Origin: Prorocentrum cordatum
Lineage: Eukaryota
NCBI GenBank assembly: GCA_963575745.1
Contig: CAUYUJ010000051.1
Coordinates: forward strand, 1-64,000
DNA length: 64,000 bases
Reading direction: 5' to 3'
The position numbers were made by a program, and so were the translations under genes. The notes beneath the pieces are model-generated. The model worked only from the letters and a program-made list of their open reading frames with translations. It ran no database searches and had not been told where the DNA came from. This document shows positions 32,286 through 63,404 of the stretch, in pieces; position 1 is the first letter of the stretch, and each line of letters starts with the position of its first letter.

Positions 32286-32317
<32 letters not shown>

Positions 32318-32369
32318 ATGATGGCGAGCAGGAGGAGGATGAGCAGGGTGACGACGACGACACGACGAC

Positions 32370-32401
<32 letters not shown>

Positions 32402-32411
32402 TGACGATGAC

Positions 32412-32472
<61 letters not shown>

Positions 32473-32498
32473 CTGATGATGATGATGATGATGATGAT

Positions 32499-32538
<40 letters not shown>

Positions 32539-32612
32539 GATGATGATGATGATGATGAGATGATGATGATGCTGATGATGATGATGTGATGATTATGCTG
32601 CTGCTGATGATG

Positions 32613-32647
<35 letters not shown>

Positions 32648-37306: not shown

Positions 37307-38409
37307 GCGGGCGCCTCGGACTGCCCCCCCCTTGCCCGGGCCGGCTTGCGGCGGCCGAGCGCGCGCGGCCGAGGGGTCGGCGCCGGCTCTCTATCTCTAG
37401 TCGGGTGTAGCCAGGGCCCCAGGCAAGGGGACCAGGTTAGTAGCAGGGCCTCGGAGCCCCTAAATTTACCAGACTCACTAAACCAGGTCTGCCGTGGCTG
37501 GTGTTTTTCGGGTGGCGGCAGTTCCGGTTGGTGGAACGGGGCCCAGGGGGCGCCCCCCAGCGGGGCCCAGGGGGCGCCCCCCAGTACACATCACTAAACC
37601 AGGTCCCACTAAACCCAGTTCCGCCAATGCCCGATCTAGGCCTCCTAGATGGGGTCGGAGTGGACGGGGTCGGAGGATCGCGCCACATCGCCGATGCATT
37701 GCCGATGCGGCTCGATGTGTAGCCCGAACTCCACGCTGGCGTCGTCGTGGCATCGCCGATGTCGCCGATGCGTCGGCGATGCATCGCCGATGCATCGGTG
37801 ATTCGGCGCGGTCCTCTGACCACATCTACTCGGACCCCATTTAGGAGGCCTCGAGGCTCTCCAGGAAAGAAATCACGCATAAACCAGGCGGGGCTGGGAC
37901 AGGGACTCAGTTGCGCGCTGCCGCGCACATCCGCCACCGTGCTCGGGGAAGCTGCGCAGGCAGGCCGCAGCGGTCCGCAGATGTGGCGTTCTGTGGTCTT
38001 AGCGCTGCATACGACGGAGCTGCTCCCGAGGAACGAAAACACGGATACGCCGGGCGGGGCTAGGACAGGGATACGTTTCTTTAGAGCGTTCCAGAAAGCT
38101 TTCAGAGCGTTCCGGAGCGCTCTCGAACGGCGACGGCGCCCGATGCATCTTCCAGAACCGTTGGATCTCAGAGATCCCCCTTGATGTCGGGTCCGTTTTT
38201 GTCCTTGTCCTGACTGCCTTAATACACATACGCTTTTGGATCTCTTGGCGGATTTCTTGGGTTGGCGCTGGAACCTTTCTGATGGCGCCTCCGGCGCCGC
38301 CCCTGGCGCGCTCCGCCCACCAGGGAGGGGGATCCAGCGTCGATTCAAGAAATCAGCGCGGTCCTCCGAACATTCATAATATATAGTATATTCCTGTTGC
38401 CGGAAAAGC

Positions 38410-41339: not shown

Positions 41340-44300
41340 TGTGGTTGTGGATTCGGGCACCGCAGTTCAGATGATGTGACTTGGTTTGCATGATGAAGTG
41401 ACTGTTCCATTGGCTGTATGAGGCCCTTGTGGCCGGAGACGGTAGCTGCACGTTGTGGTTCCATTCGCTTGCTTACGAACCAGAAACATAACGTTTTAAT
41501 GCGGGCACAGGCTTGGCTCCACAGACGCTGGATAGCTACAGGTATCAACATTTTGTCTGACGCGTGGTACCAGCACGTCGGTGGTGAACATTGATAATAG
41601 CCAGTGCGCGGATGTTTGCGGCTGTCGATTCGGACATCGCAGTTCTGGCGGTGTGATTTGTCTTGGCTTGTATGATGAAGTAACTGTTCCCTTGGCTGTC
41701 TGAGGCCCTCGTGGCCGGAGACGATAGCTGCAGGTTGTGGTTCCATTCGCTTGCTGACGAGCTAATGTCGTCGTCAGCTCCTTGCCTTGGCCCTACGGGC
41801 GCCGGATAGCTACAGGTATCAACATTTTGTCTGACGTGTGCTAGCAGCACGTCGTTGGTGAGAATTGATAACTGCCAGTGCGCGGATGCTTTCGATTGTG
41901 GGATTGTTGATTCTGACACCGCATTCCTGGCGGTGTTACTTAGTTTGGCTTGTATGATGAAGTAACTGTTCCCTTGGCTGTCTGAGGCCCTCGTGGCCGG
42001 AGACAATAGCTGCAGGTTATGGTTCCATTCGCTTGCTGACGAGCTATACATATAGTGTCTGTGTGCGTGCACTGCCTTAGCCGTAGTGTCGTCCTCAGTT
42101 CTTTGCCTTGGCCTTACGGGTGCTGGATAGCTACAGATGTCAACACTGTTCGAACGTGTGCTACCAACACGACGGTGGATGGCATTAGTAATTGCCAGTG
42201 CGCGGATGGTTGTGCTTGTGGTTTCGGACACCCCAGCTTTGGTGGTGTGACTTCTACTTGGCTTGTATGATGAAGAACGTATCCAGTTCCAAGATAGCTT
42301 CAGGTTCTGGTTCCAATCGCTTGCTGATGAGCCATAGTGTTGTGCTTGAACTGCCTTGGCCCTACAGACGCTGGAAATCTACAGTTGCCACCATCTGTCC
42401 GACGTGTGCTGCCAGCAAACCGTTGCTGAACATTGACAACTGTCAGTGCGCGGACTCTTGCGATAGTGGATTCGGACACCGCAGTTTGGAGGTGCGACTT
42501 GACTTGGCTTGTAAGATGAAGGAGCTGTTCCCTTGGCTGTCTGAGGCCCTTGTGGCCGGAGACGATAGCTGCAGGTTGGGGTTAATTTGCTGGCCGACGA
42601 GCCATAACGTCTTCCGAAGCGCTTTGCCTTGGCTCTACAGGCGCTGGGGAACCAGTGTTAAGGCCGTTTTTTTGTTGGATTGTTGAAATTGTTTGCCAGC
42701 AGTGTCTGGTGGTTACTATTGGAAAAAGCCAGTGCGCAGATCACTGTGACTGTGGATTCGGGGACCGTCGCCTTACTTCCAATGTTGTAACGTGGCTTGC
42801 ATGATGAAGTAACTGTTCCCTTGGCTGTCTGAGGCCCTCGTGGCCGGAGACGATAGCTGCAGGTTGTGGTTCCATTCGCTTGCTGACGAGCCATAATGTC
42901 TTCGGGAGCGCACGGCTTTGGCCCAACAGGCGTTGGATAGCTACAGGTATCAGCATTTTGTCTGACGAGTGTTACCAGCACGTCGTTGGTGAGCATCGAT
43001 AACTGCCAATGCGCGGATGCTTGCGATAGTGGGTTCGGACACAGCGGTTCTGGCGGTTTGGAATGACCTGGCTTGTAAGATGAAGTAACTGTTCCCTTGG
43101 CTGTCTGAGGCCCTCGTGGCCGGAGACGATAGCTGCAGGTTGTGGTTCCATTCGCTTGCTGACGAGCCATAATGTCATTGTTAGCGCACTGCCTTGGCCC
43201 TACAGACGCTGGAAAGCTGAAGGTGTCAACACTTCTCTGAGGTGTGCTACCAGCACGTCGTTGGTGAACAATGATAACTGCCAATGCGCGGGTGCTTGCG
43301 ATAGAGGACTCGGACACCGCAGCCCATGCGGTGTGTTTTGTCTTTGCTTGCATGATGAAGTAACGTTCCCTTGGCTGTCTGAGGCCCTCGTGGCTGGAGA
43401 CGATTGCCTGCAGGTTGTGGTTCCATTCGCTGGCTGACGAGGCATAATCGCAATGTCTTTGTGCGTGCACTGTCTTAGCCGTAATGTCGTCGTTAGCTCT
43501 TTGCCTTGGTCTACAGGCGCCGGATAGCTACAGATATCAATAGTCTTCGAACATATGCTGCTGACTGCCAGTGCGCAGATGCTTGCGACTAAGGATTCGG
43601 ACACCGTATTCCTGGCGGTGTGACTGGGTTTGGCTTGTATGATGAAGTAACTGTTCCCTTGGCTGTCTGAGGCCCTCGTGGTCGGAGACGATAGCTGCAG
43701 GTTGTTGTTCCATTCGCTTGCTGACGAGCCATAATGTCTTCTGGAGCGCACTGCCTTGGCCCCACAGACGCTGGACAGCTACAGGTGTCAACACTTCTCT
43801 GAGGTGTGCTACCAACACGTCGGTAATTGCCAATGCGCGGATGTTGCTATTGTGGATTCGGGCGTTGCAGTTTGGCGGTGCGACTTGATTTGGCTTTTAC
43901 CATGAAGTGACTGTTCCCTTGGCTGTCTGAGGCCCTCGTGGCCAGAGACGATAGCTGCAGGTTGTGGTTTCATTCGCTTGCTGACGAGCCATAATGTCGT
44001 TGTTAGCGCACTTCTTTGGCCTTACAGGCGCTGGGGGGCTGACGTGTTATCAACTTGATTTTGTCTGACGTGTGCTACCAGACTTCGGTGGTCAGCAATG
44101 ACACCTGCCTGTGCGTTGGAGAGTGTGATAGTGGATTCAGGCACCGTAGTTTCGACGGTATGACTTGGCTGGCATGATGAAGTAACGGTTCCCTTGGCTG
44201 TCTGAGGCCCGTGGTTCCATTCGCTTGCTCACGAGCCACAGTGTACTTCCGTGGCCCCACACTGGTGGATGCCCAAAGGTGCCCACATTTGTCTGACGTG

Positions 44301-47300
44301 TTGTGTCGAACATCGATAGCTGCCAGTGCGCGGATGCTTGCGATATTGGATTCGGGTGCCGCAATTCTAGCGGTGTGTCTTGTCTTGGCTTGTATGATGA
44401 AGTAACTGTTCCCTTGGCTGTCTGAGGCCCTCGTGGCCGGAGACGATAGCTGCAGGTTGTGGTTCCATTCGCTTGCTGACGAGCCGTAATGTCGTTGTTA
44501 GCGCACTTCTTTGGCCTTACAGGCGCTGCAGGGTTGACGTCTTATCAACATTTTGTCTGACGTGTGCTACCAGCACGACGTTGGCGAACATTGAGAACTG
44601 CCAGTGCGCGGATGCTTGCGATAGTGGACTCGGACACCGCAGTTCTGGCGGTCTGATGTGACGTGGCTTGTATGATGAAGTAACTGTTCCCTTGGCTGTC
44701 TGAGGCCCTCGTGGCCAGAGACGATAGTTGCAGGTTGTGGTACCATTCGCTTGCTGACGAGCCGTAATGTCTTCGGGAGCGCACTGACTGCCTTGGCCCT
44801 ACAGGCGCTGGATAGCTACAGGTATCAACATTTTGTCTGACGTGTGCTACCAGCACGTCGTTGGTGAACATTGATAACTGCCAATGTGCGGATGCTTAAG
44901 ACTAACTAAGGATTCGGACACCGCATTCCTGGGTGTACTGGGTTTGGCTCGTATGATGAAGTAACTGTTCCCTTGGCTGTCTGAGGCCCTCGTGGCCGGA
45001 GACGATAGCTGCAGGTTGTGGTTCCATTCGCTTGCTGACGAGCCGTAATGTCGTCGTTAGCTGACTGCTTAGCACCTACAGACGCTGGATATTTGAAGGT
45101 CTCAGTTGTTATTGGCTTGTGCTGCCAGTGCGCCGGTGTTGAACATTGACCACTGGCAGCGCACGAATGCTTGCGATAGTGGACTCGGACACCGCATTCC
45201 TGGCGGTGTGACTTGACGCGGCTTGTATGATGAAGTAACTGTTCCCTTGGCTGTCTGAGGCCCTCGTGGCCAGAGACGATAGCTGCAGGTTGTGGTTCCA
45301 TTCGCTTGCTGACGAGCCATAATGTCTTCGGGAGTGCACTGCCTTGGCTCTACGGGCGCTGGATAGCTACAGGCATCAACATTTTGTCCGACGTGACGGT
45401 GGCGAACATTGAGAACTGCCAGTGCGCGGATGCTTGCGATAGTGGGTTCGGGCACAGCAGTTCTGGCGGTCTGATGTGACGTGGCTTGTATGATGAAGTA
45501 ACTGTTCCCTTGGCTGTCTGAGGCCCTCGTGGCCAGAGACGATAGCTGCAGGTTGTGGTTCCATTCGCTTGCTGACGAGCCGTAATGTCGTCGGGAGCGC
45601 ACTGACTGCCTTGGCCCTGCAGGCGCTGGATAGCTACAGGTATCAACATTTTGTCTGACGTGTGCTACCAGCACGACGGTGGCGAACATTGAGAACTGCC
45701 AGTGCGCGGATGCTTGCGATAGTGGACTCGGACACCGCAGTTCTGGCGGTGTGACTTGTTTTGGCTTGTATGATGAAGTAACTGTTCCCTTGGCTGTCTG
45801 AGGTCCTCGTGGCCGGAGACGATAGCTGCAGGTTGTGGTTCCATTCGCTTGCTGACGAGCCGTAATGTCGTCGTTAGCTGACTGCTTTGTACCGACAGGC
45901 GCTGGATATTTGAAGGTATTAATTGTTATTGACTTGTCCTGCCAGTACGCTGGTCGTGAAGATTGACCACTGCAAGCGCGCGAATGCTTGCGATTGTGGA
46001 TTCGAGCACCGCATTCCTGGCGGTGTGACTTGACGCGGCTTGTATGATGAAGTAACTGTTCCCTTGGCTGTCTGAGGCCCTAGTGGCCGGAGACGATAGC
46101 TGCAGGTTGTGGTTCCATTCGCTTGCTGACGAGCCATAATGTCTTCGGGAGCGCACTTCTTTGGCCTTACAGGCGCTGGGGGGCTGACGTGTTATCAACT
46201 TGATTTTGTCTGACGTGTGCTACCAGACTTCGGTGGTCAGCAATGACACCTGCCTGTGCGCTGGAGAGTGTGATAGTGGATTCAGGCACCGTAGTTTCGA
46301 CGGTATGACTTGGCTGGCATGTTCAAGTAACGGTTCCTTTGGCTGTCTGAGGCCCTCGTGGCAGGAGACGATAGCTGCAGGTTGTGGTTCCATTCGCTTG
46401 CTGACGAGCCGTAATGTCTTCGGGAGCGCACTGACTGCTTTGGCCCTACAGGCGCTGGATAGCTACAGGTATCAACATTTTGTCTGACGTGTGCTACCAG
46501 CACGTCGTTGGTGAACATTGATAACTGCCAATGCGTGGCTGCTTAAGACCAAGGATTCGGACACCGCATTCCTGGGTGTACTGGGTTTGGCACGTATGAT
46601 GAAGTAACTGTTCCCTTGGCTGTCTGAGGTCCTCGTGGCCGGAGACGATAGCTGCAGGTTGTGGTTCCATTCGCTTGCTGACGAGCCGTAATGTCGTCGT
46701 TAACTGACTGCTTTGTACCTACAGGCGCTGGATATTTGAAGGTCTCAGTTGTTATTGGCTTGTGCTGGTTGTACGCCGGTGGTGAACATTGACCACTGCC
46801 AGCGCACGAATGCTTGCGATAGTGGACTCGGACACCGCATTCCTGGCGGTGTGACTTGACGCGGCTTGTATGATGAAGTAACTGTTCCCTTGGCTGTCTG
46901 AGGCCCTCGTGGCCGGAGACGATAGCTGCAGGTTGTGGTTCCATTCGCTTGCTGACGAGCCATAATGTCTTCGGGAGCGCACTGCCTTGGCTCTACAGGC
47001 GCTGGATAGCTACAGGCATCAACATTTTGTCCGACGTGTGCTACCAGCACGACGGTGGCGAACATTGAGAACTGCCAGTGCGCGGATGCTTGCGATAGTG
47101 GGTTCGGACACAGCAGTTTTGGCGGTTTGATGTGACGTGGCTTGTATGATGAAGTAACTGTTCCCTTGGCTGTCTGAGGCCCTCGTGGCCAGAGACGATA
47201 GCTGCAGGTTGTGGTTCCATTCGCTTGCTGACGAGCCGTAATGTCGTCGGAAGCGCACTGACTGTCTTGGCCCTGCAGGCGCGGGATAGCTACAGGTATC

Positions 47301-47995
47301 AACTTTTTTCTGACGTGTGCTACGAGCACGTCGTTGGTGAACATCGATAACTGCCAATGCGCGCGCGGATGCTTGCAATAGTGGACTCGGACACCGCAGT
47401 TCTGGCGGTGTGACTTGTCTTGGCTTGTATGATGAAGTAACTGTTCCCTTGGCTGTCTGAGGTCCTCGTGGCCGGAGACGATAGCTGCAGGTTGTGGTTC
47501 CATTCGCTTGCTGACGAGCCGTAATGTCGTCGTTAACTGACTGCTTTGTACCTACAGGCGCTGGATATCTGAAGGTATCAATCGTTTCTGACTTGTGCTG
47601 CCAGTACGCCGGTGGTGAACATTGACCACTGCCAGCGCTCGAATGCTTGCGATTGTGGATTCGAGCACCGCATTCCTGGTGGTGTGACTTGACGCGGCTT
47701 ATATGATGAAGTAACTGTTCCCTTGGCTGTCTGAGGCCCTCGTGGCCGGAGACGATAGCTGCAGGTTGTGGTTCCATTCGCTTGCTGACGAGCCGTAATG
47801 CCGTCGTTAGCTGACGGCTTTGTACCTAAAGGCGCGGGATATGTGAAGGTATCAGTTGTTCTTGACTTGTGCTGCAAGTATGCCTGTTTTTGAGCATTGA
47901 TCGTTGCCAGCGCGCGAATGGTTGCGATTGCCGATTCGGGCAACGCAATTCTGGCGGTGTGATTTGTTTTGGTTTGTATGATGAAGTAACTGTTC
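41340..47995 (+). ncRNA. Tandem array (about 25 units of ~274 bp) of box C/D snoRNA-like genes with an LSU rRNA guide (SNORD53-like)
   Basis: Intact units read GGCTTG-T-ATGATGA ... GTTCCCTTGGCTGT-CTGA ... CTGA-CGAGCC; the guide is complementary to LSU rRNA ACAGCCAAGGGAAC; some units are degenerate. Confidence 0.8.
44387..44485 (+). ncRNA. Representative intact box C/D snoRNA unit (99 nt)
   Basis: Stem 44387-44392/44480-44485, box C 44394-44400, guide 44408-44421, box D' 44422-44425, GGCC/GGCC hairpin, box D 44476-44479. Confidence 0.82.
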
Positions 47996-48166
47996 GAGAG
48001 TGTTTCTTTATTGCTTGGGGCATGACTAGCGCCATGGTCCCTGGCCCCCCCCGACGTAACGCTTCCCCCCCAGTGCGCTCCGGGCACTGCCGCCGTGCGC
48101 AGCGGGATCCAGATAGGTGTCCGCATAGGAATTCGGATAGGAGTCTGGTCCGCAGTCGTCGTCATT

Positions 48167-48207
<41 letters not shown>

Positions 48208-49742
48208 TCGTCGCTCGTCGCTCGTCGCTCATCGCCGTCGTTCGCGCGGACCCGGCTGGAGCCTTTTCTGTTCGGGCCGATGATTGCAATCATCTGCGGG
48301 GGGTGGGGGTGGATGGGGGCTGATGACGTCAGGTTTCGCGCCGGCGGCTTGTGGGAATGCGTGGGACTGACCGTGGATGGGTAGCAGCAACATATAGGTG
48401 GTGATCTGCACCACAGCGCCTGTATACCACAGTACTTGCTTGCGTGCACCACAGGGCTTGTGTACACCACACCGCCCATGTACACCACAACAACCGCGTG
48501 CAACACAGCGCCAGTGTGTGCCAGAGTGCTTGCGGACACCACTGCGTACATCACACCAGCCGTGTGCAACACAGCAACAGTGTACGCCACAATGCGTGCG
48601 TGCACTACAGCGCCTGTGTACACCACGGTGCCTGTGTGCACCACAGCAACCGTGTGCAACAGAGTACCACTGTTGCATGTATAATTTTAGAAGGAATCTC
48701 TCTGACAGAATGGAACGCCTGTGCGTTCCACAGAAACAATTGTGTTTTATAGGGTTTGGAACGGATTCTTTATGAACAACGGAGCACCGCTGGAATCTAT
48801 GAGTCCTCCCGAGTCCGCCCGCATCATCTTCACTCCTCCCATCTGCGTCCAGGAGGCTCCAGCTAAATTGGCCGTCCTGAACCCACTTGGAGTGATTCAA
48901 TCGACCATTCTGCGGTGCACGCTGAGATGCGCACGTGCGCTGTAGCGCCGACCCGCACGACAGGGGGGAATGAGGGAGGAGGAGAAAGAAAAGGAGAAGG
49001 AGAAGGAGAAGGAAAAGGATAAGGAAAAAGAGGAGGAGGAAGAGGAGGACGAGGAGGAGAAAGAAGAGGAGGAGGACGAGGAAGAGGAGGAGGAGGAGAA
49101 AGAAAAGGTGGCGGAGGAGGGAGGAGGGAAGAACGTCGCATTCCATTATCAACCCTTCCCTGGCGTGGCGTTCTAGCTGTCCGCAGCAGATCCTCACCTA
49201 CGTGCTCTTTCTACCTATCCTGTGCACGCAGGTGCTGCGTTGTACACCAGCGCTGCGTTGCACGCGGATGCTGTGGTGTACACAGGCGCTCTGGTATGCA
49301 AATGCGTTGCGATGCACGCAAGCACTGTGGTGTACACATCCGCTGTACTGTGTTGCACATGGTTGCTGCGGTGTACACATTCGCTGTGGTGTACACCGGC
49401 GCTGTGGTGCATGCAAGCATTGTGGTGTATTCAGGCGCTGCGTTGCACACAACTGTTGCGGTGTACGCAGGCGCTGTGGTGTACACGCGGCTGCTGTGGT
49501 GCACGCGAGCATTGTAGAGAACACAGGTGCTGTGGGGCAGATCGCCACATACATGCTGCTCGCGTCGTCGTGGTCGTCGTCGTCGTCGTGGTCGTCGTCG
49601 TCGTCGTCGCTCGTCGTTCGTCGCTCATCGTTGTCGTGCGCGCGGGCGCGGCTGTGTGGCCGGAGCCACGCGGCGGGGCGGGCGTTACAGAATACCCCCC
49701 CCCCATGACGCCCGTCATCGCCGAAAATAAAGAAACGCTTTC
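47996..49742. mobile_element. 1.75-kb non-autonomous TIR element inserted into a snoRNA unit, TSD TTC
   Basis: TIRs GAGAGTGTTTCTTTATT...ATGAC / GTCAT...AATAAAGAAACGCTTTC; the snoRNA guide is split at ACTGTTC|...|TTCCTTTGGCTG. Confidence 0.8.
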
Positions 49743-50817
49743 TTCCTTTGGCTGTCTGAGGCCCTAATGGCTGGAGACGATAGCTGCAGGTTGTGGTTCC
49801 ATTCGCTTGCTGACGAGCCGTAATTTCGTTCTTAGCTCCCTGCTTCGTACCTGCAGGCGTGTGGTATTTGAAGGTACCAATTGCTTTTGACCGGCACTGC
49901 CAGTACGCTGGTGTTGAACACTGACCATTGCCAGCGCGCGAATGCTTGAGATTGTAGATTCGGGCACCGCAGTTCTGGCGGTGTGACCTGATTTGGCTTG
50001 TATGATGAAGTAACTGTTCCCTTGGCTGTCTGAGGCCCTCGTGGCTGGAGACGATAGCTGCAGGTTGTGGTTCCATTCGCTTGCTGACGAGCCGTAATGT
50101 CGTCGTTAGCTCCCTGCTTAGTACCTACAGACGCTTGATATTCGAAGGCCTCAGTTGTTATTGGCTTGTGCTGCCGGTGCGCTGGTGGTGAACACTGACC
50201 ACTGCCAGCGTGCGAATGCTTGCGATTGCAGATTCGGGCACCGCAGTTCTGGCGGGGTGACTTAACATGGCTTGTATGATGAAGTAACTGTTCCCTTGGC
50301 TGTCTGAGGCCCTCGTGGCCAGAGACGATAGCTGCAGGTTGTGGTTCCATTCGCTTGCTGACGAGCCGTGATGTCTTTGTGTCTGCGCAAGATTCCTACA
50401 GGTACCAAACATGTGTCTGACGTGTGCTGCCAGTACGTCGGTTGTCAACATTGCTTGGTCAACAGCCAGTCCGCGGACGCTTGCGATTGTGGATTCGGGT
50501 GTCGCAGTTTTGGCGGTGTGGCTTGACGTTGCCTGTATCATGAAGTAGCTGTTCCCTTGGCTGTCTGAAGCCCTCGTGGCAGGAGACGACAGCTGCAGGT
50601 CGTGGTTCCATTCGCTTGCTGACGTGCCGCCCTCATATCGTGAGCTCTTTGCCCTGGCCTTACAGGCTCTGCGGAGCGACAGAGATAATTGTGTCTTTGC
50701 GGACGTGTACAACTTGAGTTTAGTGGTGAACATGGGATCATTGCCAGTGCGCAGGTGCGAGTGATTTTGGATTCGGGCATCACAGTTTCGACGGTTTGAC
50801 GTGGCCTGTACGATGAC
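49743..50817 (+). ncRNA. Continuation of the snoRNA array (cores near 49995, 50269 and 50530, plus partial units)
   Basis: Same core and spacer family. Confidence 0.75.
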
Positions 50818-51599
50818 ATATTCATGCCCTTCGCAATTCCTCTCCTCGCGTATCGAATGGCCTTCGGCCCATCCCGCCACCGCGCCTGGGTTGAGGGTAT
50901 GAAGCTTCTTAGATATTCGTTGGGATCTCGTGGGGGGCCTCTCGGGGGCCTCTTGGAGGCAGTTTGGAGGCCTCTTCGGGGCCGCTTTGCGGACTCTTGG
51001 GGCCTTTTCTGGGTCTCTGGCGTGCCTCTTGGGGGCCTCTTGGGGGCCTCTTGGGGGTGTCCTGGGCGCCTCTTGGGGCCTCCCGGGGGCCTCCTGGGGC
51101 GGGAGGCCCGGATTTTCGGTTCGTGTTCCCTCTCTCGGGCCTCTTGTTGGCCGTCTTTCTTGGGCCGTCTTGGGGCTCTTTTGTGGGCCGTCTTGGGGCC
51201 CCCTGGGAGGTCTTTTGGGCCATCCTGGAGCGGTCTCGGGAGCCTCTTGGGCTTTCTAGGAGCGTCGAGACGCCGAAAAGGCGAGAACGCCAGCATCCCT
51301 CAAAATCGACAAGCTATCAATTACTCCGACGGTCGGACCCGACATGATAACCTATTAAGATTACCCTTTGCTTTTTCCTCTTCGCCTTGGCCGAAGCCCC
51401 CCCGTCTCGCCCTCTGTGGGACCTCCTTCTCCTCATCCTCCTTGTCTTCCTCGTCCTCTGTCTCCTCCTCCTGCTCGGCCTCCTCGTTCAATTGTTCCTC
51501 TTCCTCTTCGTCCTTTTCCTTCTCCTCCTTCTCCTCCTCCTTCTCCGCCTCCCCCCTCATCTCCATCCCGCCTGTTCTCCTCATGCACTTCTCCTTCCT

Positions 51600-53105
51600 C
51601 TTGGCAGGGGGGCGCATGCCGATTTTCCTCGGCACCCTCGCCGCTGCGCCTGGCAGGGGCGCGTTCTCCGATGGCCAAATCGCGAAGCCGTCGGGGCAAC
51701 GGCCGTTGGGACAACCCCGCGGGCCGCTGGGGCGAGAGAGCAAGCCGTGAGGACAACCCCGCAGACACCGAGGTAGTCGCGGCCGTGCTCAGGCGAGAGG
51801 CAGCACGAAGTTCAGCTCTGCCGCGAGCTGCCCCGCCGCAGCCACGGGGTGCACCGCACTATTGTTCAACTCTTCGAACGCCTTGTGACTAGGGAAGGGG
51901 GCTCCCGCCTGAGACTTCCTTGCAACTCGTTCACATACGTGTGAGGAACGCCCCGTGGTGTGCCCATTTGGGATGCTCAACTGTTTTGCCCTGTAGAGTT
52001 TGCCGATGACCCGCTCGGATTGTCAGCGTGAAGTGCGGACCCCGTAGGGAGGGGGCTCCCGCCTGAGATTTCCTCGCCATCCACTCGCAGACGAATCCCT
52101 CGCGTGAGACTCCTTCCATATTCAATTCCGGGGGTCCGAGAAGTGACGACACAGGTTTCCGATGGCCCGCTCGGGTTACTAACATGAAGTGTGGACCGCG
52201 TAGGGAGGGGGCTCTCGCCTGAGCCTTCTTCGCAGTTAACTCAGATACACAATTCCCGCCAGAGGCTTCCTCCATGTTCAGCCCACAGGAACCGAAAAGT
52301 AAGGACAGTTCAGGTTTCCGATGACCCGGTCGGGTTGTCAACGTGAAGTGCAGTGCAAATCTCATAGGGAGGGGGCTCTCGTTTGAGACTTCCTCGCGCT
52401 GCATTCACAATTGAATATCCCGCCTGAGTGTTCTTCCATATTCAGTCTAGGGGAGCCGAAACGTGACGACCTTTTCGAATTTCCGATGCTTCATTCGGGC
52501 TGCCGGCATGAAGTGTGGACCCCATACGGAGGGGTCTTTCGCCAGATACTTCCTCGCAGTTCACTCACAGACGAAATTCCCGCCAGACTTCTTCCGTATC
52601 CAACTTGGAAAAAGCCGAACAGTGAAGACAGTTACAGGTTCCCGATGGCCCGTTCGGATTGCCAACGTGAAGTGCGGACCCCATGGGGGAGGGGACCCCG
52701 CCTGATAATTCCTCGCCATCCACTCACAGACGAAGTTTCCGCCTGATATTTCTTCCGTGCCCAACGTGGAAAACCCGAACAGTGACGACAGTTACAGGTT
52801 CCCGATGGCCCGCTCGGATTGCCAACGTGAGGTGCGGACCCCATGGGGAAGGGGGGCCCGCCTGATAGTTCCTCGCCATCCACTCACAGACGGACTTTCC
52901 GCCTGAGACGTCTTCCGTATTCAATCCAGAAGAGCCAGACGAAACTCTCGCCTGAAATGTCGAGTGTATTTAATCCAAAACAGCCGAAAAGTGACGACAT
53001 CTACATGTTTTCGATGACCCGCGCGAATTGCCAACATGAGGTGCGGACCCCATAGGGAAGGGGCTCCCGCCTAAGACTTCCTCCTCACTCTTAACTTACA
53101 GACGG
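51600..53105 (-). mobile_element. Helicase-end element with an array of diverged 159-bp satellite units
   Basis: Minus-strand QLAAELNFVLP near 51800; GGCTCCCGCCTGAGACTTCCT units at 51890-53100. Confidence 0.72.
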
Positions 53106-53306
53106 ATCCGCTTCTTGGTCGGTGATCACGATGGGATGGTGATAGTGACGAATGTGTGATGCTAGTGATAGTGATGGTGATGGTGACTGATGGTGAGTGG
53201 TGATTGATCTGGTGGTGGTGAATCAGTTTGATCAGGTGGACAAGAGTGTGTGTGTGTGTGTGAGAGGGTGTGATGACGATTATCAATGAGTATGTGTGTG
53301 CTGACA

Positions 53307-53365
<59 letters not shown>

Positions 53366-53388
53366 GGTGGTGGTGGTGGTGATGATGG

Positions 53389-53429
<41 letters not shown>

Positions 53430-53724
53430 GTGGTACTGATCGTAATAATGGGTGTGATAACAATTGTGATAGTGATAGTGCTGAGGTGGACGTGATGGGG
53501 GGAGGGTGGGAGTTGAGCGCGGAGGTGTGCAGAGAAAACAGGACGCCCCCTTAGGATGTGGGGAATGATTCTGGCCTCTTGGGCTCTCGGGAGGCCTCTT
53601 GGAGACCCCGTGGGGCGTCTTGGGGGCCTCTTGGGGCGTCTTGGGTCATCTTGGGCGTTTTCGGTCGATCAGTCGGCGTGTCGGGGCCCTCTTGGACCTT
53701 CTGGCGGTCTCTTAGAGCCATCTT

Positions 53725-54694
53725 GGCTTGTATGATGAAGTAACTGTTCCCTTGGCTGTCTGAGGCCCTCGTGGCCGGAGACGATAGGTGCAGGTTGTGG
53801 TTCCATTCGCTTGCTGACGAGCCGTAATGTCGTTGTTAGCTTCTTGCTTCATACCTGCAGGCGTGTGGTATTTGAAGGTATCTGTTGTTTTTGACCTGTA
53901 CCGCCAGTACGCTGGTGGTGAACATCGACCACTGCCAGCGCGCGAATGCTTGCGATTGCAGATTCGGGCACCGCAGTTCTGGCGGTGTGACTTGATTTGG
54001 CTTGTATGATGAAGTAACTGTTCCCTTGGCTGTCTGAGGCCCTCGTGGCCAGAGACGATAGGTGCAGGTTGTGGTTCCATTCGCTTGCTGACGAGCCGTA
54101 ATGTCGTTGTTAGCCTCTTGCTTCGTACCTGCTGGCGTGTGGTATTTGAAGGTATCTGTTTCTTTTGACCTGTACTGCCAGCACGCTGGTGGTGAATATC
54201 GACCACTGCCAGCGCGCGAATGCTTTCGAATGTAGATTCGGGCACCGCAGTTCTGGCGGTGTGACTTGATTCGGCTTGTATGATGAAGTAACTGTTCCCT
54301 TGGCTGTCTGAGGCCCTCGTGGCCGGAGACGATAGGTGCAGGTTGTGGTTCCATTCGCTTGCTGACGAGCCGTAATGTCGTTGTTAGCTTCTTGCTTCGT
54401 ACCTGCAGGCGTGTGGTATTTGAAGGTACCTGTTGTTTTTGACCTGTATCGCCAGTACGCTGGTGGTGAACACTGAGCACTGCCAGCGCGCGAATGCTTG
54501 CGATTGCAGATTCGGGCACCGCAGTTCTGGCGGTGTGACTTGATTTGGCTTGTATGATGAAGTAACTGTTCCCTTGGCTGTCTGAGGCCCTCGTGGCCAG
54601 AGACGATAGGTGCAGGTTGTGGTTCCATTCGCTTGCTGACGAGCCGTAATGTCGTCGTTAGCTCCTTGTTTTGTACCTACAGGCGCTGGATATT
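53725..54694 (+). ncRNA. Homogeneous snoRNA sub-array, 4 units with an exact 274-bp period
   Basis: Cores near 53725, 53999, 54273 and 54547, sharing the GATAGGTGCAGG variant. Confidence 0.8.
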
Positions 54695-55634
54695 GCGAAG
54701 GCCTTACGGCCGGTGCCGCCGACCCTGCATGGCGGCGACAACCACGACCACAACGTCGAAGTTCGCGGGGGCCTCCTGGGGCTAGTTTGGGGGCCTCTTG
54801 GGAAGCTCTTGGAAGCCGCTTGGGAGCCTCGTGGGGGCCTCTTGGGGCTTCCTGGGGGTCTCTGGGGGGCCTCTTGGGGCTTCTTGAGGGGCTTCTTAGG
54901 AGCCTCTGGGGGTCTCCTGAGTGAGAGCTTCTCAACCAAACCGAGGGCTCGAAATGTCCGTTCGGGTCCCCCGTCTGGGCTCCCTTTTACAACCGTCTTG
55001 GAAGCCTCTTCGATTGTCTTGGAGGCCTCTTGGACGGTCTTGGGGCCCTCTTGGGTCGTTTGGGGGCTCTCTTGGGCCCCTCTTGGGCCATCTTGGGGCA
55101 GTCTTGGGGGCCTCTTGGCCTGTCTTGGAGCGTCGGGAAGCTGACAAGGCGAGAAAGCCGAGATTTTTCAAAAAGCTAAGGGAAATCTATGATCTTTGTG
55201 TCTGGTGTCTGGTGCCCTCTTTGAAGTCCTCTTGGAGGCCTCTTGGGACGTTTTGGAAACTTTTTGAGTTGTCTGGAGACTACTTTGGCGACTTGGACCG
55301 ATACTTCGGCGATTTGGGGCCCTCGAGGACCGTCTTGGGGGCATCTTGGGACAGTTTGCCGCGTCTTGGAGCTTTTCTGGGCCCCCGAACCGCCCGGGGG
55401 GGAGTCGTATCTGACCCAGGACTTCCCCGGGACTTTCCCGGGACTTCCCTGGGACCCCCCCCCCACCCCCTTGGCGGGGAAGGGATCAAAGGGAAGGGGC
55501 TTCCCTTCGACTCCACCACAACGTTACTCAATTTCGCTGTGGCTGGCGCGCTCGACGACGACAACGACCACGACGACGACGACGACGACGAGTCAAATGG
55601 AACAGCCTCTTCCACACGCCGACAGGGTCGGCGG
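54695..55634. mobile_element. Helentron/HINE-like insertion in a snoRNA spacer
   Basis: Interrupts the spacer GGATATT|TGAAGG; sub-terminal inverted repeat CCGCCGACCCTG / CAGGGTCGGCGG; short hairpins at both ends; internal GGCCTCTTGG repeats. Confidence 0.55.
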
Positions 55635-56293
55635 ATTTGAAGGTATCAGTTATTATTGACTTGTGCTGCCAGTACGCTGGTGGTGAACATTGGCCACTGC
55701 CAGCGCGCGAATGCTTGCAATTGTGGATTCGGGCACCGCAGTTCTGGCGGTGTGACTTGACTTGGCTTGTATCGTGAAGTAGCTATTCCCTTGGCTGTCT
55801 GATGCCGTCGTGGTCGGAGACGATAGCTGCAGGTTGTGGCCCCATTCGCTTGCTGACGAGTCATCATGTACTTGTGTTTGCACTGCCTTGACCCAGTATG
55901 AGCAAGATTTCTACAGGCACGTCGGTTGTGAACATTGCTTTGTCGACAGCCAGTCCGCGGACGCGTGCGATTGTGGATTCGGGCACCGCAGTTCTGGCGG
56001 TGTGACTTGATTTGGCTTGTATGATGAAGTAACTGTTCCCTTGGCTGTCTGAGGCCCTTGAGGCCAGAGTCGATAGCTGCAGGTTGTGGTTCCATTCGCT
56101 TGCTGACGAGCCGCCCTGATGTCGTCGTGAGCTCATTGCCCTGGCCTTACAGGCTCTGTGGAACGAAATTTTCTGACGTGTATCATTTGATATCGGTGGT
56201 GAACATGGTATCATTGCCAGTGCGCAGATGCGAGTGATATTAGATTCGGGCATCGAAGTTTCGACGGTTTGACGTGGCTTGTGCGATGAAGTA
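55635..56293 (+). ncRNA. Final segment of the snoRNA array (cores near 55764 and 56013, one truncated near 56276)
   Basis: Same core, more degenerate. Confidence 0.65.
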
Positions 56294-58072
56294 CGAGTTT
56301 CCTAGGCAATTCCTCTCCTCGCGTATCTAATGGCCTTCGGCCCATCCCGCCGCCGTGCCTGGGATGTGGGTATGAAGCTTGGATATTCGTTGGGATCTCT
56401 TAGGAGGCCTCTCGGGGGCCTCTTGGAGGCAGTCCGGAGGCCTCTTGGGGGCTGTTGTGCGGACTCTTGGGGCCTCTTTGGGTCTCTTGGGGGCCCCTTG
56501 GGGCCTCTTGGGAGCCACTTGGGGGCCTCCTGGGCGCCTCTTGGGGCCTCCTGGGAGCCTCCTGGGGCGGAAGGATTGGATTGTCGGTTCGTGTTCGCTC
56601 TCTTGGGCCCCTTTGGGCCGTCTTTGGGCCCTCTTGGGCCGGCTTGGGCGCCTCTTGGGCCCTCTTGGGGCTCTCTTCGGACGTCTTGGGGCCCTCTGGG
56701 AGGTCTATTAGGCCATCTTGCAGCGGTCATGGGAGCCTCTTGAGCCGTCTTGGAGCGTCGGGAAGCCGAAAAGGCGAGAACGCCAACATCCTTCAAAACA
56801 GACAAAATATAAATGATTATGGCCTCTTGGGCTCTCGGGATGCCTCTTGGAGGCCCCTTGGGGCGTCTTGGGGGCCTCTTGGGCCCTCTTGGGTCATCTT
56901 GGGCGTCTCGGAACGATCAGTGGGCGTCTCGGGGCCCTCTTGGACCGTCCTGGCGGCCTCTTGGAGCACTCTTGGCCTGTCTTGGGCTCTCTTGGGCCCC
57001 CTGGGAGGCGCGCGGGGAGACGCGTGGGAGCTTCGGGGAACCGCTCCTGGCCCCGGGAGATGTGAGAATTGTGGGTCGGGGCCCTTGAATCGGGGGCGGA
57101 AAAGGGGGGGGTGATGATAGGGGGGGGTGGATATCATGGCGGGGGCCATGATATCTCCCCAGATCTCATGGCGCCTCTTCTTGTTTCATTACGTCCCTGG
57201 CCCCCCCGCTGGGCCGCGCACATGCCGCCGGTCATGATTTGCACCCCCACTCTTGGACACCCCCCTCTTGGCCGCTCCCGACCTTGAAAGATTTATCAGG
57301 ACTGAGGAGTGAGGCTCCAGGGATCAGGCCAAGGACCTGAGGGCACGCCCACTCCGTGCCCAAAGGCACGGTGGCGGATCAGCTGGGTTTGTTGGAATCG
57401 ATCGGGGTCTTCGTGCAGTGCGTGCGGTTCAGGGTTCATTCAGATAGTGCCGAAGTTTGTCGCCAGTCTCTGGAGGCAGTCAGCAAGGTTTCATGCACAC
57501 TCAGCATGTAGCCAACCTGCACTGCAGTGTTGCCCGGTAGCGCGCGCGTCCGTCTCAGCATGCCATATGCTCCGTCGGGTGGGCACTGCGATGCGCTACG
57601 GCTTGTACCAGTTTTGCAGGGGATGATGGTGAGGAGGAGGAGGAGGCGGTCGACGGGGATGATACGCAGCAACGTCGCACGACTCTCGCAGGCGGGGGTA
57701 CGAGGGGAGACGGCGATTCCAGTCCACAGCCACATTGATTCGCTCGTGCCCTTCTCTATCCTTCTAGGTCAAGCACGGGGGCGCAAAAACAGTCGAGCCC
57801 CGCGCTTCGCGATCTGGGCCAGCGTGTTGCCCTTCTCCAGGGTTGTGGCGCGAGAGCGCGAGGACAGCCGCGAATCGCGCTTCCCCGACCCCCTTTCGTC
57901 GTGTTTTTTCTCGGCGGACCCCCAGAGGTCTGGACCCCTCTTCCACGGCCGCTTCTCCTGTCTTCTCCCGAGGACTGTTTTACGTTGCTGGGGCCCGGTC
58001 GTGGGCTCCCACGAGCCGAAAATGACCAGAGGCCCTCCGTCATGATTCCCTCGCGACGCGAGGAGTTCTGTA

Positions 58073-58482: not shown

Positions 58483-59750
<1,268 letters not shown>

Positions 59751-62491: not shown

Positions 62492-62706
62492 GGCCTCCCA
62501 GATGTGGCCCGAGTGGGTGGAGTCGGAGGATCGCTTGGCATCGCCGATGCATCAGCGATGTGGCGCGATGTGGAGCCTGATGTTCTCCACCCCGACGTCG
62601 TCAAGGCTTTGCCGACGTTGCCGATGCATCGCCAATGCATCAGCGATTCATCGGGGATATTGCGCGATCTTCCGACCCCATCCACTCGGACCCCAGTTGG
62701 GATGCC
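62492..62706. mobile_element. Copy of the TCTA-TSD MITE family
   Basis: TCTA|GGCCTCCCAG...GGGATGCC|TCTA with the same palindromic core. Confidence 0.75.
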
Positions 62707-62803
62707 TCTAACGCAGTGCTGCGGCAGTTGTGGGTGCGGCGGACGGGAGCAGTGAGAGCGATGTCCTGCGGAGGAGCTATGGGGAGGGGGAGGGGGCAAG
62801 GGG

Positions 62804-62968: not shown

Positions 62969-62990
62969 TCCGTAGCCATTTTGGCTCAAG
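62969..62990 (+). other. Genomic copy of the dinoflagellate spliced leader (DinoSL)
   Basis: TCCGTAGCCATTTTGGCTCAAG matches DCCGTAGCCATTTTGGCTCAAG at 22/22. Confidence 0.97.
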
Positions 62991-63100
62991 TCCATAGCGG
63001 TTGCTCGAGGACGCGAGTTTTTTTGTGGCAAGGGCATTTCACGGCCGCACCACACATCGGTACTGCAGCTACCTGATCGCTCTTTACCGATGCCTTCGAT

Positions 63101-63368
63101 ATGGATGGTTTCTCTCATTGGACGTGCCCGAACACGAGGTGCGGAAACAATGGGAACTTCTCGTGGAGATCTACGTGTCGTGTGTGCAAGCAGGCGCCTC
63201 ACTGAGTTCCCGAACCCAAGCCAGCAGGATGTGCGCGTGGCAGCTGGGCCAAGGGGCCGCCAGCGCGTGACGCTCCGTCTAAGGGCAATAGCGTGCAGCT
63301 CACAGACTCGTTGGTCGCCATCTATGTCCGCATTCCCGAGGAAGAGTTCAAGTCTCTTGCGCAGTCGC

Positions 63369-63404
<36 letters not shown>

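What the first reader, a model, noticed from the sequence alone, without database searches (positions are those of the whole stretch)
41340..56293. Intronic satellite made of about 35 tandem box C/D snoRNA genes targeting LSU rRNA
Seen: ~274-bp units, each with a highly conserved 99-nt core and visibly more divergent ~175-nt spacers. The core has a GGCTTG/CGAGCC terminal stem, box C ATGATGA in K-turn spacing, an internal CTGA (D'), a GGCC/GGCC hairpin, a weak C' (AGACGA) and box D CTGA. The copy at 44946 has GGCTCG, which perfects the stem. Established knowledge, from memory: eukaryotic LSU rRNA contains AGCGAAACCACAGCCAAGGGAAC. The D' guide GTTCCCTTGGCTGT is its exact 14-nt complement, and the +5 rule picks the C after ACAG, the site I recall for human SNORD53, whose guide also ends CUUGGCUGU-CUGA. 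All copies are sense to the host gene and lie in its 21-kb intron. Inference: either a massively amplified single-family polycistronic snoRNA locus or a snoRNA-derived satellite. I know of no description of such an array in a dinoflagellate.
Basis: partly seen in the sequence, partly recalled or inferred. Interest (0 to 1): 0.92.

Follow-up and report, generated by a model that had tools for sequence, protein, structure and literature searches.

The report
Tandem snoRNA gene array in a dinoflagellate
A 15-kb stretch of a dinoflagellate genome holds about thirty head-to-tail copies of one small guide-RNA gene that most likely directs a conserved methylation of large-subunit ribosomal RNA; it is a real and tidy case, but of a gene arrangement already known from other protists and from mammals.

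Summary
From 41340 to 56297, all on the + strand, lie 32 full-length copies and 4 fragments of a 99-nt core, spaced about 274 bp apart in four blocks. The core has every box C/D snoRNA feature. Its D' guide is a perfect 14-nt complement (16 bp with extensions) of a conserved eukaryotic LSU rRNA site, and the +5 rule picks the C after ACAG, the SNORD53 site.

Cores differ by 2.7% and spacers by 19.9%. By box, guide and stem criteria 23 of 32 copies are intact; most defective ones carry 6-10 changes. Two homologues in other metagenomes keep the boxes and the D' guide (the second guide fully in one, only its 3' half in the other) but have different, compensating terminal stems. Three marine runs hold the core, near-identical, with unlike flanks. 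This points to selected genes, not a dead satellite.

Not shown: a discrete RNA, the host's own rRNA, and the target of the second (D) guide. I found no exon, so "intronic" is unverified. A full dinoflagellate spliced-leader relic at 62970 marks a gene start downstream.

Rfam's SNORD53/92 model matches only the guide, below threshold, and here the guide sits at D', not D. Repeated snoRNA arrays are known in trypanosomatids, plants and, by recall, Euglena and mammals. Moderate interest.

The parts
41340..56297 (+). Whole array: 32 full-length copies and 4 fragments of a 99-nt box C/D core with 162-184-nt spacers, in four blocks
41383..47995 (+). Block A: 23 full-length copies plus fragments. 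The 44387-47794 part shows a six-unit (about 1.65-kb) higher-order repeat
   Evidence: Spacer identity at a lag of 6 units is 90-96% for five of six pairs, against 68-80% between spacer types
49743..50628 (+). Block B: the 3' part of the split copy plus 3 full copies (one defective)
53725..54645 (+). Block C: 4 intact copies
55764..56112 (+). Block D: 1 defective and 1 intact copy. A truncated last copy follows at about 56275-56297
44387..44485 (+). Reference snoRNA copy, 99 nt
44387..44392 (+). 5' half of the terminal stem (GGCTTG). It pairs with 44480-44485 (CGAGCC)
   Evidence: The stem is in the MFE fold. Four of its 7 alignment pairs show compensatory changes against L127 and L117
44394..44400 (+). 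Box C, ATGATGA
   Evidence: TGATGA is kept in 25 of 32 copies
44408..44421 (+). D' guide GTTCCCTTGGCTGT. It is the exact complement of ACAGCCAAGGGAAC in eukaryotic LSU rRNA, and the fifth pair upstream of D' falls on the C after ACAG
   Evidence: 16 bp, -31.1 kcal/mol on L014, L091 and L110. Unchanged in 29 of 32 copies
44422..44425 (+). Box D', CTGA
   Evidence: 31 of 32 copies
44426..44438 (+). Internal hairpin GGCC-CTCGT-GGCC between D' and C'
   Evidence: In the intact copies every change within its stem keeps G-U pairing. L127 has GGTC/GACC
44441..44446 (+). Degenerate box C', AGACGA. The two GA dinucleotides are kept: AGAAGA in L127, TGAAGA in L117
44463..44475 (+). D guide TTCCATTCGCTTG. 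It is conserved, but its target is not identified
   Evidence: Unchanged in 26 of 32 copies. Kept in L127 (TTCCATTCGCTTT). In L117 only the 3' part TTCGCTTG is kept
44476..44479 (+). Box D, CTGA
   Evidence: 29 of 32 copies
47996..49742 (.). A 1.75-kb insertion that splits one core copy (core positions 1-25 and 23-99). TTC is duplicated at the two joints, and the ends are inverted repeats matching at 13 of 15 positions

Best explanation
This is a multi-copy locus of genuine box C/D snoRNA genes in a dinoflagellate nuclear genome.

Inferred mechanism. The same-strand array is transcribed as a long precursor. Each 99-nt unit is then trimmed out while protected by the core C/D proteins (Snu13, Nop56, Nop58, fibrillarin) bound at the C/D kink-turn next to the terminal stem. 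The D' guide pairs over 14-16 bp with the conserved LSU rRNA sequence ACAGCCAAGGGAAC. Fibrillarin methylates the 2'-OH of the C after ACAG, the site served by SNORD53 in vertebrates.

The second guide, upstream of box D, is also under constraint. It either guides a second, unidentified methylation or serves as accessory pairing.

The array grew by unequal crossing-over, including duplication of a six-unit block. Copies that lose a box or the guide then decay as pseudogenes.

Shown here: the anatomy, the complementarity to eukaryotic LSU rRNA, selective conservation of the core, covariation with homologues, and occurrence of the core in other samples. Inferred: transcription, processing, snoRNP assembly and methylation in this organism.
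For: 1. Anatomy. Box C, D', a degenerate C' that keeps both GA dinucleotides, box D and a 6-bp terminal stem are all in canonical order and spacing. The stem and the internal hairpin appear in the MFE fold.

2. Guide. The D' guide pairs over 16 bp (-31.1 kcal/mol) with each of three eukaryotic LSU fragments. Rfam confirmed these as LSU_rRNA_eukarya at 122-415 bits. The fifth position falls on the C after ACAG.

3. Same guide in known families. Rfam SNORD53_SNORD92 aligns to guide plus box. C. elegans ceN28 also does. The pattern 'TGATGA, gap, CCCTTGGCTGTCTGA' recovered 17 metagenome loci. I scanned 12 of them. They include snoZ157/R69/R10 (same clan, CL00063) above its gathering score in L115 and L116, and a full-length SNORD53_SNORD92 match at 36.5 bits in L126. 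Passages of bioRxiv 10.1101/2021.07.15.452550 link SNORD53 and SNORD92 to 28S A3846 and C3848.

4. Selection. Cores differ by 2.7% and spacers by 19.9% over 171 pairs. 23 of 32 copies keep the boxes, the D' guide and at least 5 of 6 stem pairs. Intact copies carry 0-4 changes. Seven of the 9 defective copies carry 6-10, one carries a single C-box change, and one has a 28-nt deletion. The D guide was not part of my 'intact' criterion. It shows one change among the 23 intact copies, at its 5' edge.

5. Homologues. L127 and L117 keep the boxes and the D' guide (L127 also the whole D guide, L117 only its 3' half) but have terminal stems AGACC/GGTCT and GTCCA/TGGAC. On alignment A3, 5 of 11 pairs show compensatory changes, 96.6% of cells are paired, and 0 of 500 shuffles reach this.

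6. Other samples. Contigs of three runs (X1, X2, X4) match only 44384/5/98 to 44485/7, with 1-2 differences and unlike flanks. The similarity therefore ends at the snoRNA's own ends (X4's contig starts at 44398, where the contig itself ends).
Against: - No RNA evidence. The one RNA run (X4) is held as contigs, which cannot show transcription, ends or abundance.
- The host's own LSU rRNA was not available: no genome is held. The three LSU fragments were found through the pattern itself, so they show the site exists in eukaryotes, not in this species.
- No Rfam family reaches its gathering score anywhere in the window. The SNORD53_SNORD92 match is local and scores 21.5 against 46 bits.
- Box C' is degenerate.
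- 9 of 32 full copies are defective.
- Gene conversion confined to the core could mimic purifying selection.
- The covariation test rests on three lineages and on a structure that I wrote myself.
- The D guide has no identified target. Its best pairing near the D' site is no better than shuffled guides (fraction of shuffles at least as good 0.04-0.36).
Confidence: 0.8

Rival explanations
1. A snoRNA-derived satellite. One snoRNA gene, or a retrocopy of it, was amplified as ordinary tandem-repeat DNA. The copies are not expressed as functional snoRNAs. The working gene lies elsewhere.
For: The array has satellite features: head-to-tail units, a higher-order repeat, neighbouring 11-bp satellites and microsatellites, a transposon-like insertion, and 9 defective copies of 32. 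No expression data are available.
Against: Unselected repeats should diverge alike in core and spacer. Here spacers differ about 7-fold more. Changes in intact copies avoid the D guide, which was not used to define 'intact', and the changes in the hairpin stem keep pairing. The number of changes per copy is bimodal, as in gene families with pseudogenes. Other samples hold the core near-identical with diverged flanks.
Confidence: 0.12
2. An array of snoRNA-like RNAs with a main role other than rRNA methylation, as proposed for the mammalian SNORD115 and SNORD116 arrays. Such roles include regulation of mRNA processing, or a source of smaller RNAs.
For: A large single-family tandem array resembles the mammalian orphan arrays (my recollection). 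The conserved D guide has no identified rRNA target.
Against: The D' guide is the canonical, widely conserved rRNA guide, not an orphan. It is unchanged in 29 of 32 copies.
Confidence: 0.05
3. Chance resemblance: a satellite whose unit merely looks like a C/D snoRNA.
For: Short boxes such as CTGA and TGATGA are common. Archaeal sR2/sR5 models give many weak chance hits on GAT-rich microsatellites of the same window.
Against: By my estimate, a 14-nt exact complement placed directly at a CTGA box, with the fifth position on a known methylated site, has a chance of about 1e-4 or less. Homologues with compensating stems exist in other organisms.
Confidence: 0.02

Closest known systems
SNORD53/SNORD92 (Rfam RF00325) and its clan CL00063, which includes plant snoZ157/R69/R10 (RF00333); also Tetrahymena TtnuCD15 (RF02291, no clan assigned in Rfam's listing), which carries the same guide
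   Same: The same guide sequence, CCCUUGGCUGU followed by CUGA, and therefore the same predicted LSU target. Vertebrate SNORD53 and SNORD92 are linked to 28S C3848 and A3846 (passages). Accessory pairing by a second antisense element is proposed for SNORD53 and SNORD92 in that preprint.
   Different: In those families the guide sits upstream of box D in the 3' half (model positions 46-74 of 78; sequences). Here, and in L127 and L117, it sits upstream of D' in the 5' half, and a different conserved guide occupies the D position. The window copies score 21.5 bits against a gathering score of 46. Known members are single genes or parts of mixed clusters, not homogeneous arrays.
Repeated, polycistronically transcribed snoRNA clusters of trypanosomatids and plants, and tandemly repeated snoRNA clusters of Euglena
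   Same: Same-strand clusters processed from long precursors. [quoted passage not shown] Rice has intronic snoRNA clusters (reference list entry seen in PMC2656528). Locus L127 shows such a mixed repeated cluster that includes this very snoRNA.
   Different: Those clusters usually mix several different C/D and H/ACA snoRNAs in each repeat. Here the unit holds one snoRNA only and is repeated about 32 times in 15 kb. The Euglena tandem arrays are my recollection of Moore and Russell 2012, which I did not see.
Mammalian SNORD115, SNORD116 and SNORD113/114 tandem arrays (recalled, not seen in a call)
   Same: Dozens of tandem copies of one C/D snoRNA family on one strand, inside a long transcription unit.
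   Different: The mammalian arrays are orphan (no rRNA target), imprinted, and have one copy per intron of a repeated non-coding host gene. Here the guide is a canonical rRNA guide, and no exons were found between copies.
Dinoflagellate tandem arrays of small-RNA genes (SL RNA, 5S rRNA, U6; recalled) and of protein genes (title of PMC7245778)
   Same: Lineage-typical amplification of genes into same-strand tandem arrays.
   Different: I found no description of a snoRNA gene array, or of any characterised snoRNA gene, in a dinoflagellate.

Membership tests
Box C/D snoRNA (class) | Box C (RUGAUGA) near the 5' end and box D (CUGA) near the 3' end, brought together by a short terminal stem | tested here: met
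   ATGATGA at 44394-44400, CTGA at 44476-44479, and a 6-bp stem. The stem covaries in L127 and L117.
Box C/D snoRNA (class) | A guide of at least 10 nt complementary to rRNA that ends next to D or D', with the target at the fifth pair | tested here: met
   14 exact pairs, 16 with extensions, to three Rfam-confirmed eukaryotic LSU fragments. The host's own rRNA was not available.
Box C/D snoRNA (class) | Internal D' and C' boxes | tested here: met
   D' is a perfect CTGA. C' is degenerate (AGACGA) but keeps both GA dinucleotides, as in L127 and L117.
Box C/D snoRNA (class) | A stable RNA of 60-120 nt bound by fibrillarin, Nop56, Nop58 and Snu13 | not testable with these tools
   Only contigs of runs were available, and these cannot show RNA ends or levels.
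Rfam RF00325 SNORD53_SNORD92 | A score at or above the gathering threshold of 46 bits over the whole model | tested here: not met
   21.5 bits, a local match to model positions 46-74 of 78 only. No hit at gathering level in the whole window.
Rfam RF00325 SNORD53_SNORD92 | The guide lies in the 3' half, upstream of box D | tested here: not met
   Here the guide lies between box C and D'.
Rfam RF00325 SNORD53_SNORD92 | Guide sequence directed at the LSU site ACAG(C)CAAGG | tested here: met
   UUCCCUUGGCUGU-CUGA against the consensus UUCUCUUGGCUGU-CUGA.
Intron-encoded snoRNA cluster | Flanking exons of a host gene on the same strand | tested here: inconclusive
   No exon was recognised (Pfam on 292 of the 314 ORFs of 110 aa or more; GC3 scan). 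No transcript data. The next recognisable gene landmark is a spliced-leader relic at 62970.
Neutral satellite DNA | Uniform divergence across the repeat unit, with no constrained segment | tested here: not met
   Core 2.7% against spacer 19.9%.

The most novel reading that the evidence does not exclude
Dinoflagellates may supply an essential rRNA-methylation guide from large single-snoRNA arrays in which most copies are individually kept by selection. The array would be transcribed as part of the long same-strand transcription units that are resolved by spliced-leader trans-splicing, so the snoRNAs would be cut out of discarded inter-gene RNA, not out of a classical intron. In this lineage the ancient SNORD53-type guide has moved to the D' position and is paired with a second conserved guide. 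That second guide may clamp the same rRNA segment (AGCGAA/ACCACAGCC just upstream of the target) as an accessory element.
Probability: 0.3. Interest if true: 0.6.

Novelty: new member of a known kind. Interest (0 to 1): 0.5.

Why it matters
In the searches I could run I found almost nothing in print on dinoflagellate snoRNAs. This locus gives a concrete snoRNA with a predictable rRNA target that small-RNA sequencing and RiboMeth-seq can test. It shows that the lineage's habit of amplifying genes into same-strand arrays extends to modification guides. The contrast between a frozen 99-nt core and spacers that differ by about 20% is a clean natural experiment on selection acting copy by copy inside a tandem array. 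The same guide sits at D' here and at D in animals, plants and ciliate-like sequences, which is a small but clear example of guide shuffling between the two halves of C/D snoRNAs. None of this overturns current understanding. Repeated snoRNA clusters are known in trypanosomatids and plants and, by my recollection, in Euglena and mammals.

Tried and rejected
- Whole genome: none is held for this window, so genome-wide copy number and the host rRNA could not be examined.
- Full eukaryotic rDNA, wanted to test the D guide. The viral-contig scan with a 31-mer from L014 gave 0 hits. The genome search with RF02543 failed twice with a machine error. The tool's control genomes gave no hit for RF00325, as expected if they hold no eukaryote. 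Only three LSU fragments of about 400-600 nt were obtained.
- D guide target. RNAduplex against these fragments gave different, imperfect best sites in each fragment. Pairing within 70 nt of the D' target (TTCGCT with AGCGAA, plus GGTTGTGG with ACCACAGCC) was no better than shuffled guides (fraction 0.04-0.36). A weak whole-length Rfam alignment to snoZ39 (15.6 bits, E 1.4) is not evidence. From memory I considered sites in 18S and in LSU domain II that contain GCGAAUG. I could not test these and make no claim for them.
- Host gene. Pfam on 292 of the window's 314 six-frame ORFs of 110 aa or more (the 22 wholly inside the arrays were left out) found one real domain, RVT_1 at 11161-11937 on the minus strand; one further hit over its cut-off, New_glue on 32102-34009, lies in repetitive low-complexity sequence. 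A GC3-periodicity scan returned only trinucleotide microsatellites (one search had a coding slip and is void). Translations of flanking ORFs look non-coding or belong to a dispersed repeat.
- Spacer structure. RNAalifold on 19 spacers gave a weak consensus (-11.6 kcal/mol, covariation term -0.8). I claim no conserved spacer RNA structure.
- Sequencing runs. The four runs hold only small shares of the stretch (0.04-0.07). They are used only for what their contigs cover, not for habitat or expression.
- Earlier findings of this scan: nothing relevant.
- Literature string searches for the two guides found no paper.
Full report
**Observation**

- Tandem Repeats Finder reports period-274/282 arrays at 41377-44210, 44308-47995, 49743-50375 and 53723-54685.
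- blastn with the 99-nt copy 44387-44485 gives 36 hits, all 36 on the + strand, between 41383 and 56112.
- These hits amount to 32 full-length copies plus fragments at 42293-42333, 47971-47995 and 49743-49819. One of the 32, at 44167, has a 28-nt internal deletion. A truncated last copy at about 56275-56297 is visible.
- A 32-nt pattern running from box C to box D' matches 29 times with up to 3 mismatches, against 0 expected.
- The left edge, at about 41340, begins with the 3' part of a spacer.
- The array is broken into four blocks by other repeats, so "about 35 tandem" should read "32 full copies and 4 fragments in four blocks".

**Anatomy of the unit**

Reading 5' to 3', the reference copy holds:
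- 5' half of the stem, GGCTTG;
- box C, ATGATGA;
- a 21-nt stretch ending in the guide GTTCCCTTGGCTGT;
- box D', CTGA;
- hairpin GGCC-CTCGT-GGCC;
- a degenerate box C', AGACGA, which keeps both GA dinucleotides;
- a 29-nt stretch ending in TTCCATTCGCTTG;
- box D, CTGA;
- 3' half of the stem, CGAGCC.

The terminal stem and the hairpin are both in the minimum-free-energy fold. The fold's z-score is unremarkable (-0.58), as expected for an RNA whose guides must stay single-stranded.

**The target**

A 14-mer scan of prokaryotic genome contigs returned 113 loci. Most are chance matches. Three are contaminating or chimeric fragments of eukaryotic LSU rRNA (L014, L091, L110). All three have the context ...AGCGAAACC-ACAGCCAAGGGAAC-GGGCTTGG. 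Rfam confirms them as LSU_rRNA_eukarya at 122-415 bits.

The D' guide pairs with them over 16 bp at -31.1 kcal/mol. Counting five pairs from D' lands on the C after ACAG.

Because these fragments were found through the pattern itself, they show only that the site exists in eukaryotic LSU rRNA. They do not show it for this species. Independent support comes from the snoRNA side:
- Rfam's SNORD53_SNORD92 model aligns to guide plus box: UUCCCUUGGCUGUCUGA against the consensus UUCUCUUGGCUGUCUGA, 21.5 bits, E 0.018 on 113 nt.
- C. elegans ceN28 carries the same 15 nt.
- A metagenome scan for 'TGATGA, 5-14 nt, CCCTTGGCTGTCTGA' returned 17 loci. I scanned 12 of them with Rfam. They include plant snoRNA clusters with snoZ157/R69/R10 above its gathering score (same clan, CL00063), a full-length SNORD53_SNORD92 match at 36.5 bits, and ciliate-like TtnuCD15 matches.
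- Passages of bioRxiv 10.1101/2021.07.15.452550 tie SNORD53 and SNORD92 to 28S A3846 and C3848. A table in PMC9941101 lists SNORD92 for Am3867, old numbering Am3846.
- In locus L117 the homologue is followed by a second snoRNA-like sequence whose guide is shifted by 2 nt. That shift would pick the A two bases upstream, matching the A/C pair of sites.

**Genes or dead satellite?**

Four lines of evidence favour genes.

1. Core against spacer. Across 19 units (171 pairs), cores differ by 2.7% and spacers by 19.9%. On all 32 units aligned with MAFFT the figures are 5.6% and 30%.

2. Intact against defective copies. By explicit criteria (TGATGA, both CTGA boxes, unchanged D' guide, at least 5 of 6 stem pairs), 23 of 32 copies are intact.
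   - Intact copies carry 0-4 changes.
   - Seven of the 9 defective copies carry 6-10 changes. One has a single box C change, and one has the 28-nt deletion.
   - This bimodal pattern is that of genes and pseudogenes.
   - Absence of changes in the boxes and the D' guide among intact copies follows from my definition.
   - The D guide was not part of the definition. It shows only one change, at its 5' edge.
   - All changes in the hairpin stem of intact copies keep G-U pairing.

3. Homologues in other organisms. Two metagenome loci hold homologues with the same architecture.
   - L127 has the same D' guide, hairpin GGTC/GACC, C' AGAAGA and D guide TTCCATTCGCTTT.
   - L117 has the same D' guide, C' TGAAGA and a D guide ending in TTCGCTTG.
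   - Their terminal stems are AGACC/GGTCT and GTCCA/TGGAC, against GGCTTG/CGAGCC in the window.
   - On alignment A3, 5 of 11 pairs have compensatory changes, 96.6% of cells are paired, and 0 of 500 shuffles reach the observed values. Sliding the partners destroys the signal.
   - Caveats: only three lineages, and I wrote the structure myself.

4. Other samples. Contigs of three runs, two marine metagenomes and one metatranscriptome, match only from 44384/5 (X4: from 44398, where its contig ends) to 44485/7, with 1-2 differences, and then run on into unlike sequence.
   - Similarity therefore stops at the snoRNA's own ends.
   - By eye, the X2 flank still shares GATTCGGAC with the window's spacers. 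The X4 flank shares AGCGCACTGCCTTGGC with them. This suggests diverged arrays in relatives.
   - A fourth run (organism A) holds six contigs, some reaching into spacer at lower identity.
   - Contigs cannot show transcription, so this is evidence of conservation only.

**How the array evolves**

Spacers fall into types. In 44387-47794, identity between spacers six units apart is 90-96% for five of six pairs, against 68-80% between types. A block of six units (about 1.65 kb) was therefore duplicated.

One copy is split by a 1.75-kb insertion (47996-49742). TTC is duplicated at the joints, and the ends are inverted repeats matching at 13 of 15 positions. This looks like a transposon of the terminal-inverted-repeat kind. 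Blocks are also separated by 11-bp (CTCTTGGGGGC-like) satellites and by microsatellites.

**Surroundings and the 'intron' claim**

No whole genome is held.

Among 292 of the window's 314 six-frame ORFs of 110 aa or more (the 22 wholly inside the arrays were not sent), Pfam finds one convincing domain. It is a reverse-transcriptase fragment at 11161-11937 on the minus strand, E 6.8e-11. One other hit passes its cut-off, New_glue on 32102-34009, but it lies in repetitive low-complexity sequence. A GC3 scan picks up only trinucleotide microsatellites. Translations near the array look non-coding or belong to a dispersed repeat.

I therefore cannot confirm a host gene or a 21-kb intron.

A perfect match to the dinoflagellate spliced leader lies at 62970-62990 on the + strand. 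The same string occurs in 28 papers on dinoflagellates, for example in the abstract of PMC5585692 on retrogenes (search listing). It is followed by TCC, not GT. This fits a relic leader at the 5' end of a retroposed gene, not an SL RNA gene or an internal exon.

This supports the dinoflagellate origin. It also suggests that the array lies upstream of a gene start. In an organism that resolves long same-strand transcripts by trans-splicing, such inter-gene RNA is discarded much as an intron is. That last point is my inference.

**The second guide**

The D guide is conserved in 26 of 32 copies. It is also conserved in L127, and in its 3' half in L117. It is therefore probably functional.

I could not identify its target, because only 400-600-nt LSU fragments were available. 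Its best pairing next to the D' site is TTCGCT with AGCGAA plus GGTTGTGG with ACCACAGCC, with a 4-nt bulge. This recurs in the three fragments but is no better than shuffled guides. Accessory pairing of this sort is proposed for vertebrate SNORD53 and SNORD92 (passage). It remains a hypothesis here.

**Comparison with known systems**

The RNA works like SNORD53. It is not a member of Rfam RF00325 by that family's own criteria: 21.5 against 46 bits, and the guide at D' instead of D.

The gene arrangement resembles several known cases:
- the repeated, polycistronically transcribed clusters of trypanosomatids (passages of PMC2613932, and PMC6562600);
- plant clusters, including intronic ones (reference entry);
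- the mammalian SNORD115 and SNORD116 arrays and the Euglena arrays, both from my recollection.

L127 shows the same snoRNA inside a mixed cluster of about 540 bp, repeated in tandem. That cluster also holds a SNORD14-like RNA, present three times at 40-43 bits, below its gathering score. It has one intact and two decayed copies of the SNORD53-like RNA.

The distinguishing feature here is a homogeneous single-snoRNA array of about 32 copies carrying a canonical rRNA guide, in a dinoflagellate.

Three full-text searches found no paper describing a dinoflagellate snoRNA gene or array: 'dinoflagellate, snoRNA, tandem', 'dinoflagellate, snoRNAs, fibrillarin', and the guide strings. The one dinoflagellate genome paper I opened for the word uses snoRNAs only as a read filter. 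Subscription journals and bioRxiv supplements were not searchable.

**Verdict**

It is unverified for 'intronic'.

The locus is best described as a new member of a known kind, the tandemly repeated snoRNA gene locus, with two variant features: a single-family array, and the guide at D' with a second conserved guide.

Interest is moderate at 0.5. It is a clean, testable first look at dinoflagellate snoRNA genes and at copy-by-copy selection inside an array. It is not a surprise for a lineage that arrays most of its genes.

Noticed in passing
window 62970-62990 (+), with the preceding T at 62969: A perfect copy of the dinoflagellate spliced leader, followed by TCC and not by a GT donor, and then by an open frame that runs to the window's end (62976-63998). 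It is probably the relic leader of a retroposed gene. It sits directly after a (GGA)n microsatellite.
   Followed up: partly
window 47996-49742: A 1.75-kb insertion inside one snoRNA copy. TTC is duplicated at both joints, and the terminal inverted repeats match at 13 of 15 positions. Internally it holds 18-bp repeat arrays in both orientations around a (GGAGAA)n core, so it looks like a foldback or TIR-type mobile element.
   Followed up: partly
window 11161-11937 (-): A reverse-transcriptase (RVT_1) fragment, E 6.8e-11. It is the only convincing protein domain among the 292 ORFs of 110 aa or more that I scanned.
   Followed up: no
window 50933-51099, 53573-53666, 54767-55128, 56390-56997: An 11-bp satellite (consensus near CTCTTGGGGGC) recurs between and after the snoRNA blocks.
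   Followed up: no
window about 34750-35000, 37480-37800, 37723-37900, 62345-62750 (both strands): A dispersed repeat whose translations share motifs such as IADASAMH and PPTPSTRTP. It is probably a non-coding interspersed element seen in several frames.
   Followed up: no
window 16170-16303: A long near-perfect hairpin that gives weak hits to many unrelated microRNA precursor models on both strands (best 37 bits, all far below gathering). It is probably just a palindrome.
   Followed up: no
window 58485-59674, 53307-53429, 32100-34100: Very long trinucleotide microsatellites, (GAT)n, (GAG)n and (ATG)n, up to about 1.1 kb. They produce spurious long ORFs and weak hits to archaeal sR2/sR5 snoRNA models.
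   Followed up: no
L127 1-1633 (minus strand): A metagenome contig made of a tandem repeat of about 540 bp. It holds a SNORD14-like RNA three times (40-43 bits, below gathering). It also holds the SNORD53-like homologue once intact and twice decayed. The decayed copies have a mutated D' box and guide.
   Followed up: partly
L117, minus strand, just downstream of the homologue (reverse-strand positions about 1600-1660): A second snoRNA-like sequence whose guide CTCCCTTGGCTGTGA-CTGA is shifted by 2 nt. It would select the A two bases upstream of the C, the SNORD92-type site, so both guides are clustered in that organism.
   Followed up: no
L014 5776-6181 (minus strand): A fragment of about 400 bp of eukaryotic, plant-like LSU rRNA embedded in a 1.16-Mb contig of a marine alphaproteobacterium, with bacterial-looking flanks. 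It is either a chimeric assembly or contamination. The snoRNA core is absent from that genome.
   Followed up: partly
window 44439 (core position 53): A G/A polymorphism among copies (A in 8 of the 23 intact copies). All matching contigs of the four other sequencing runs carry A.
   Followed up: no
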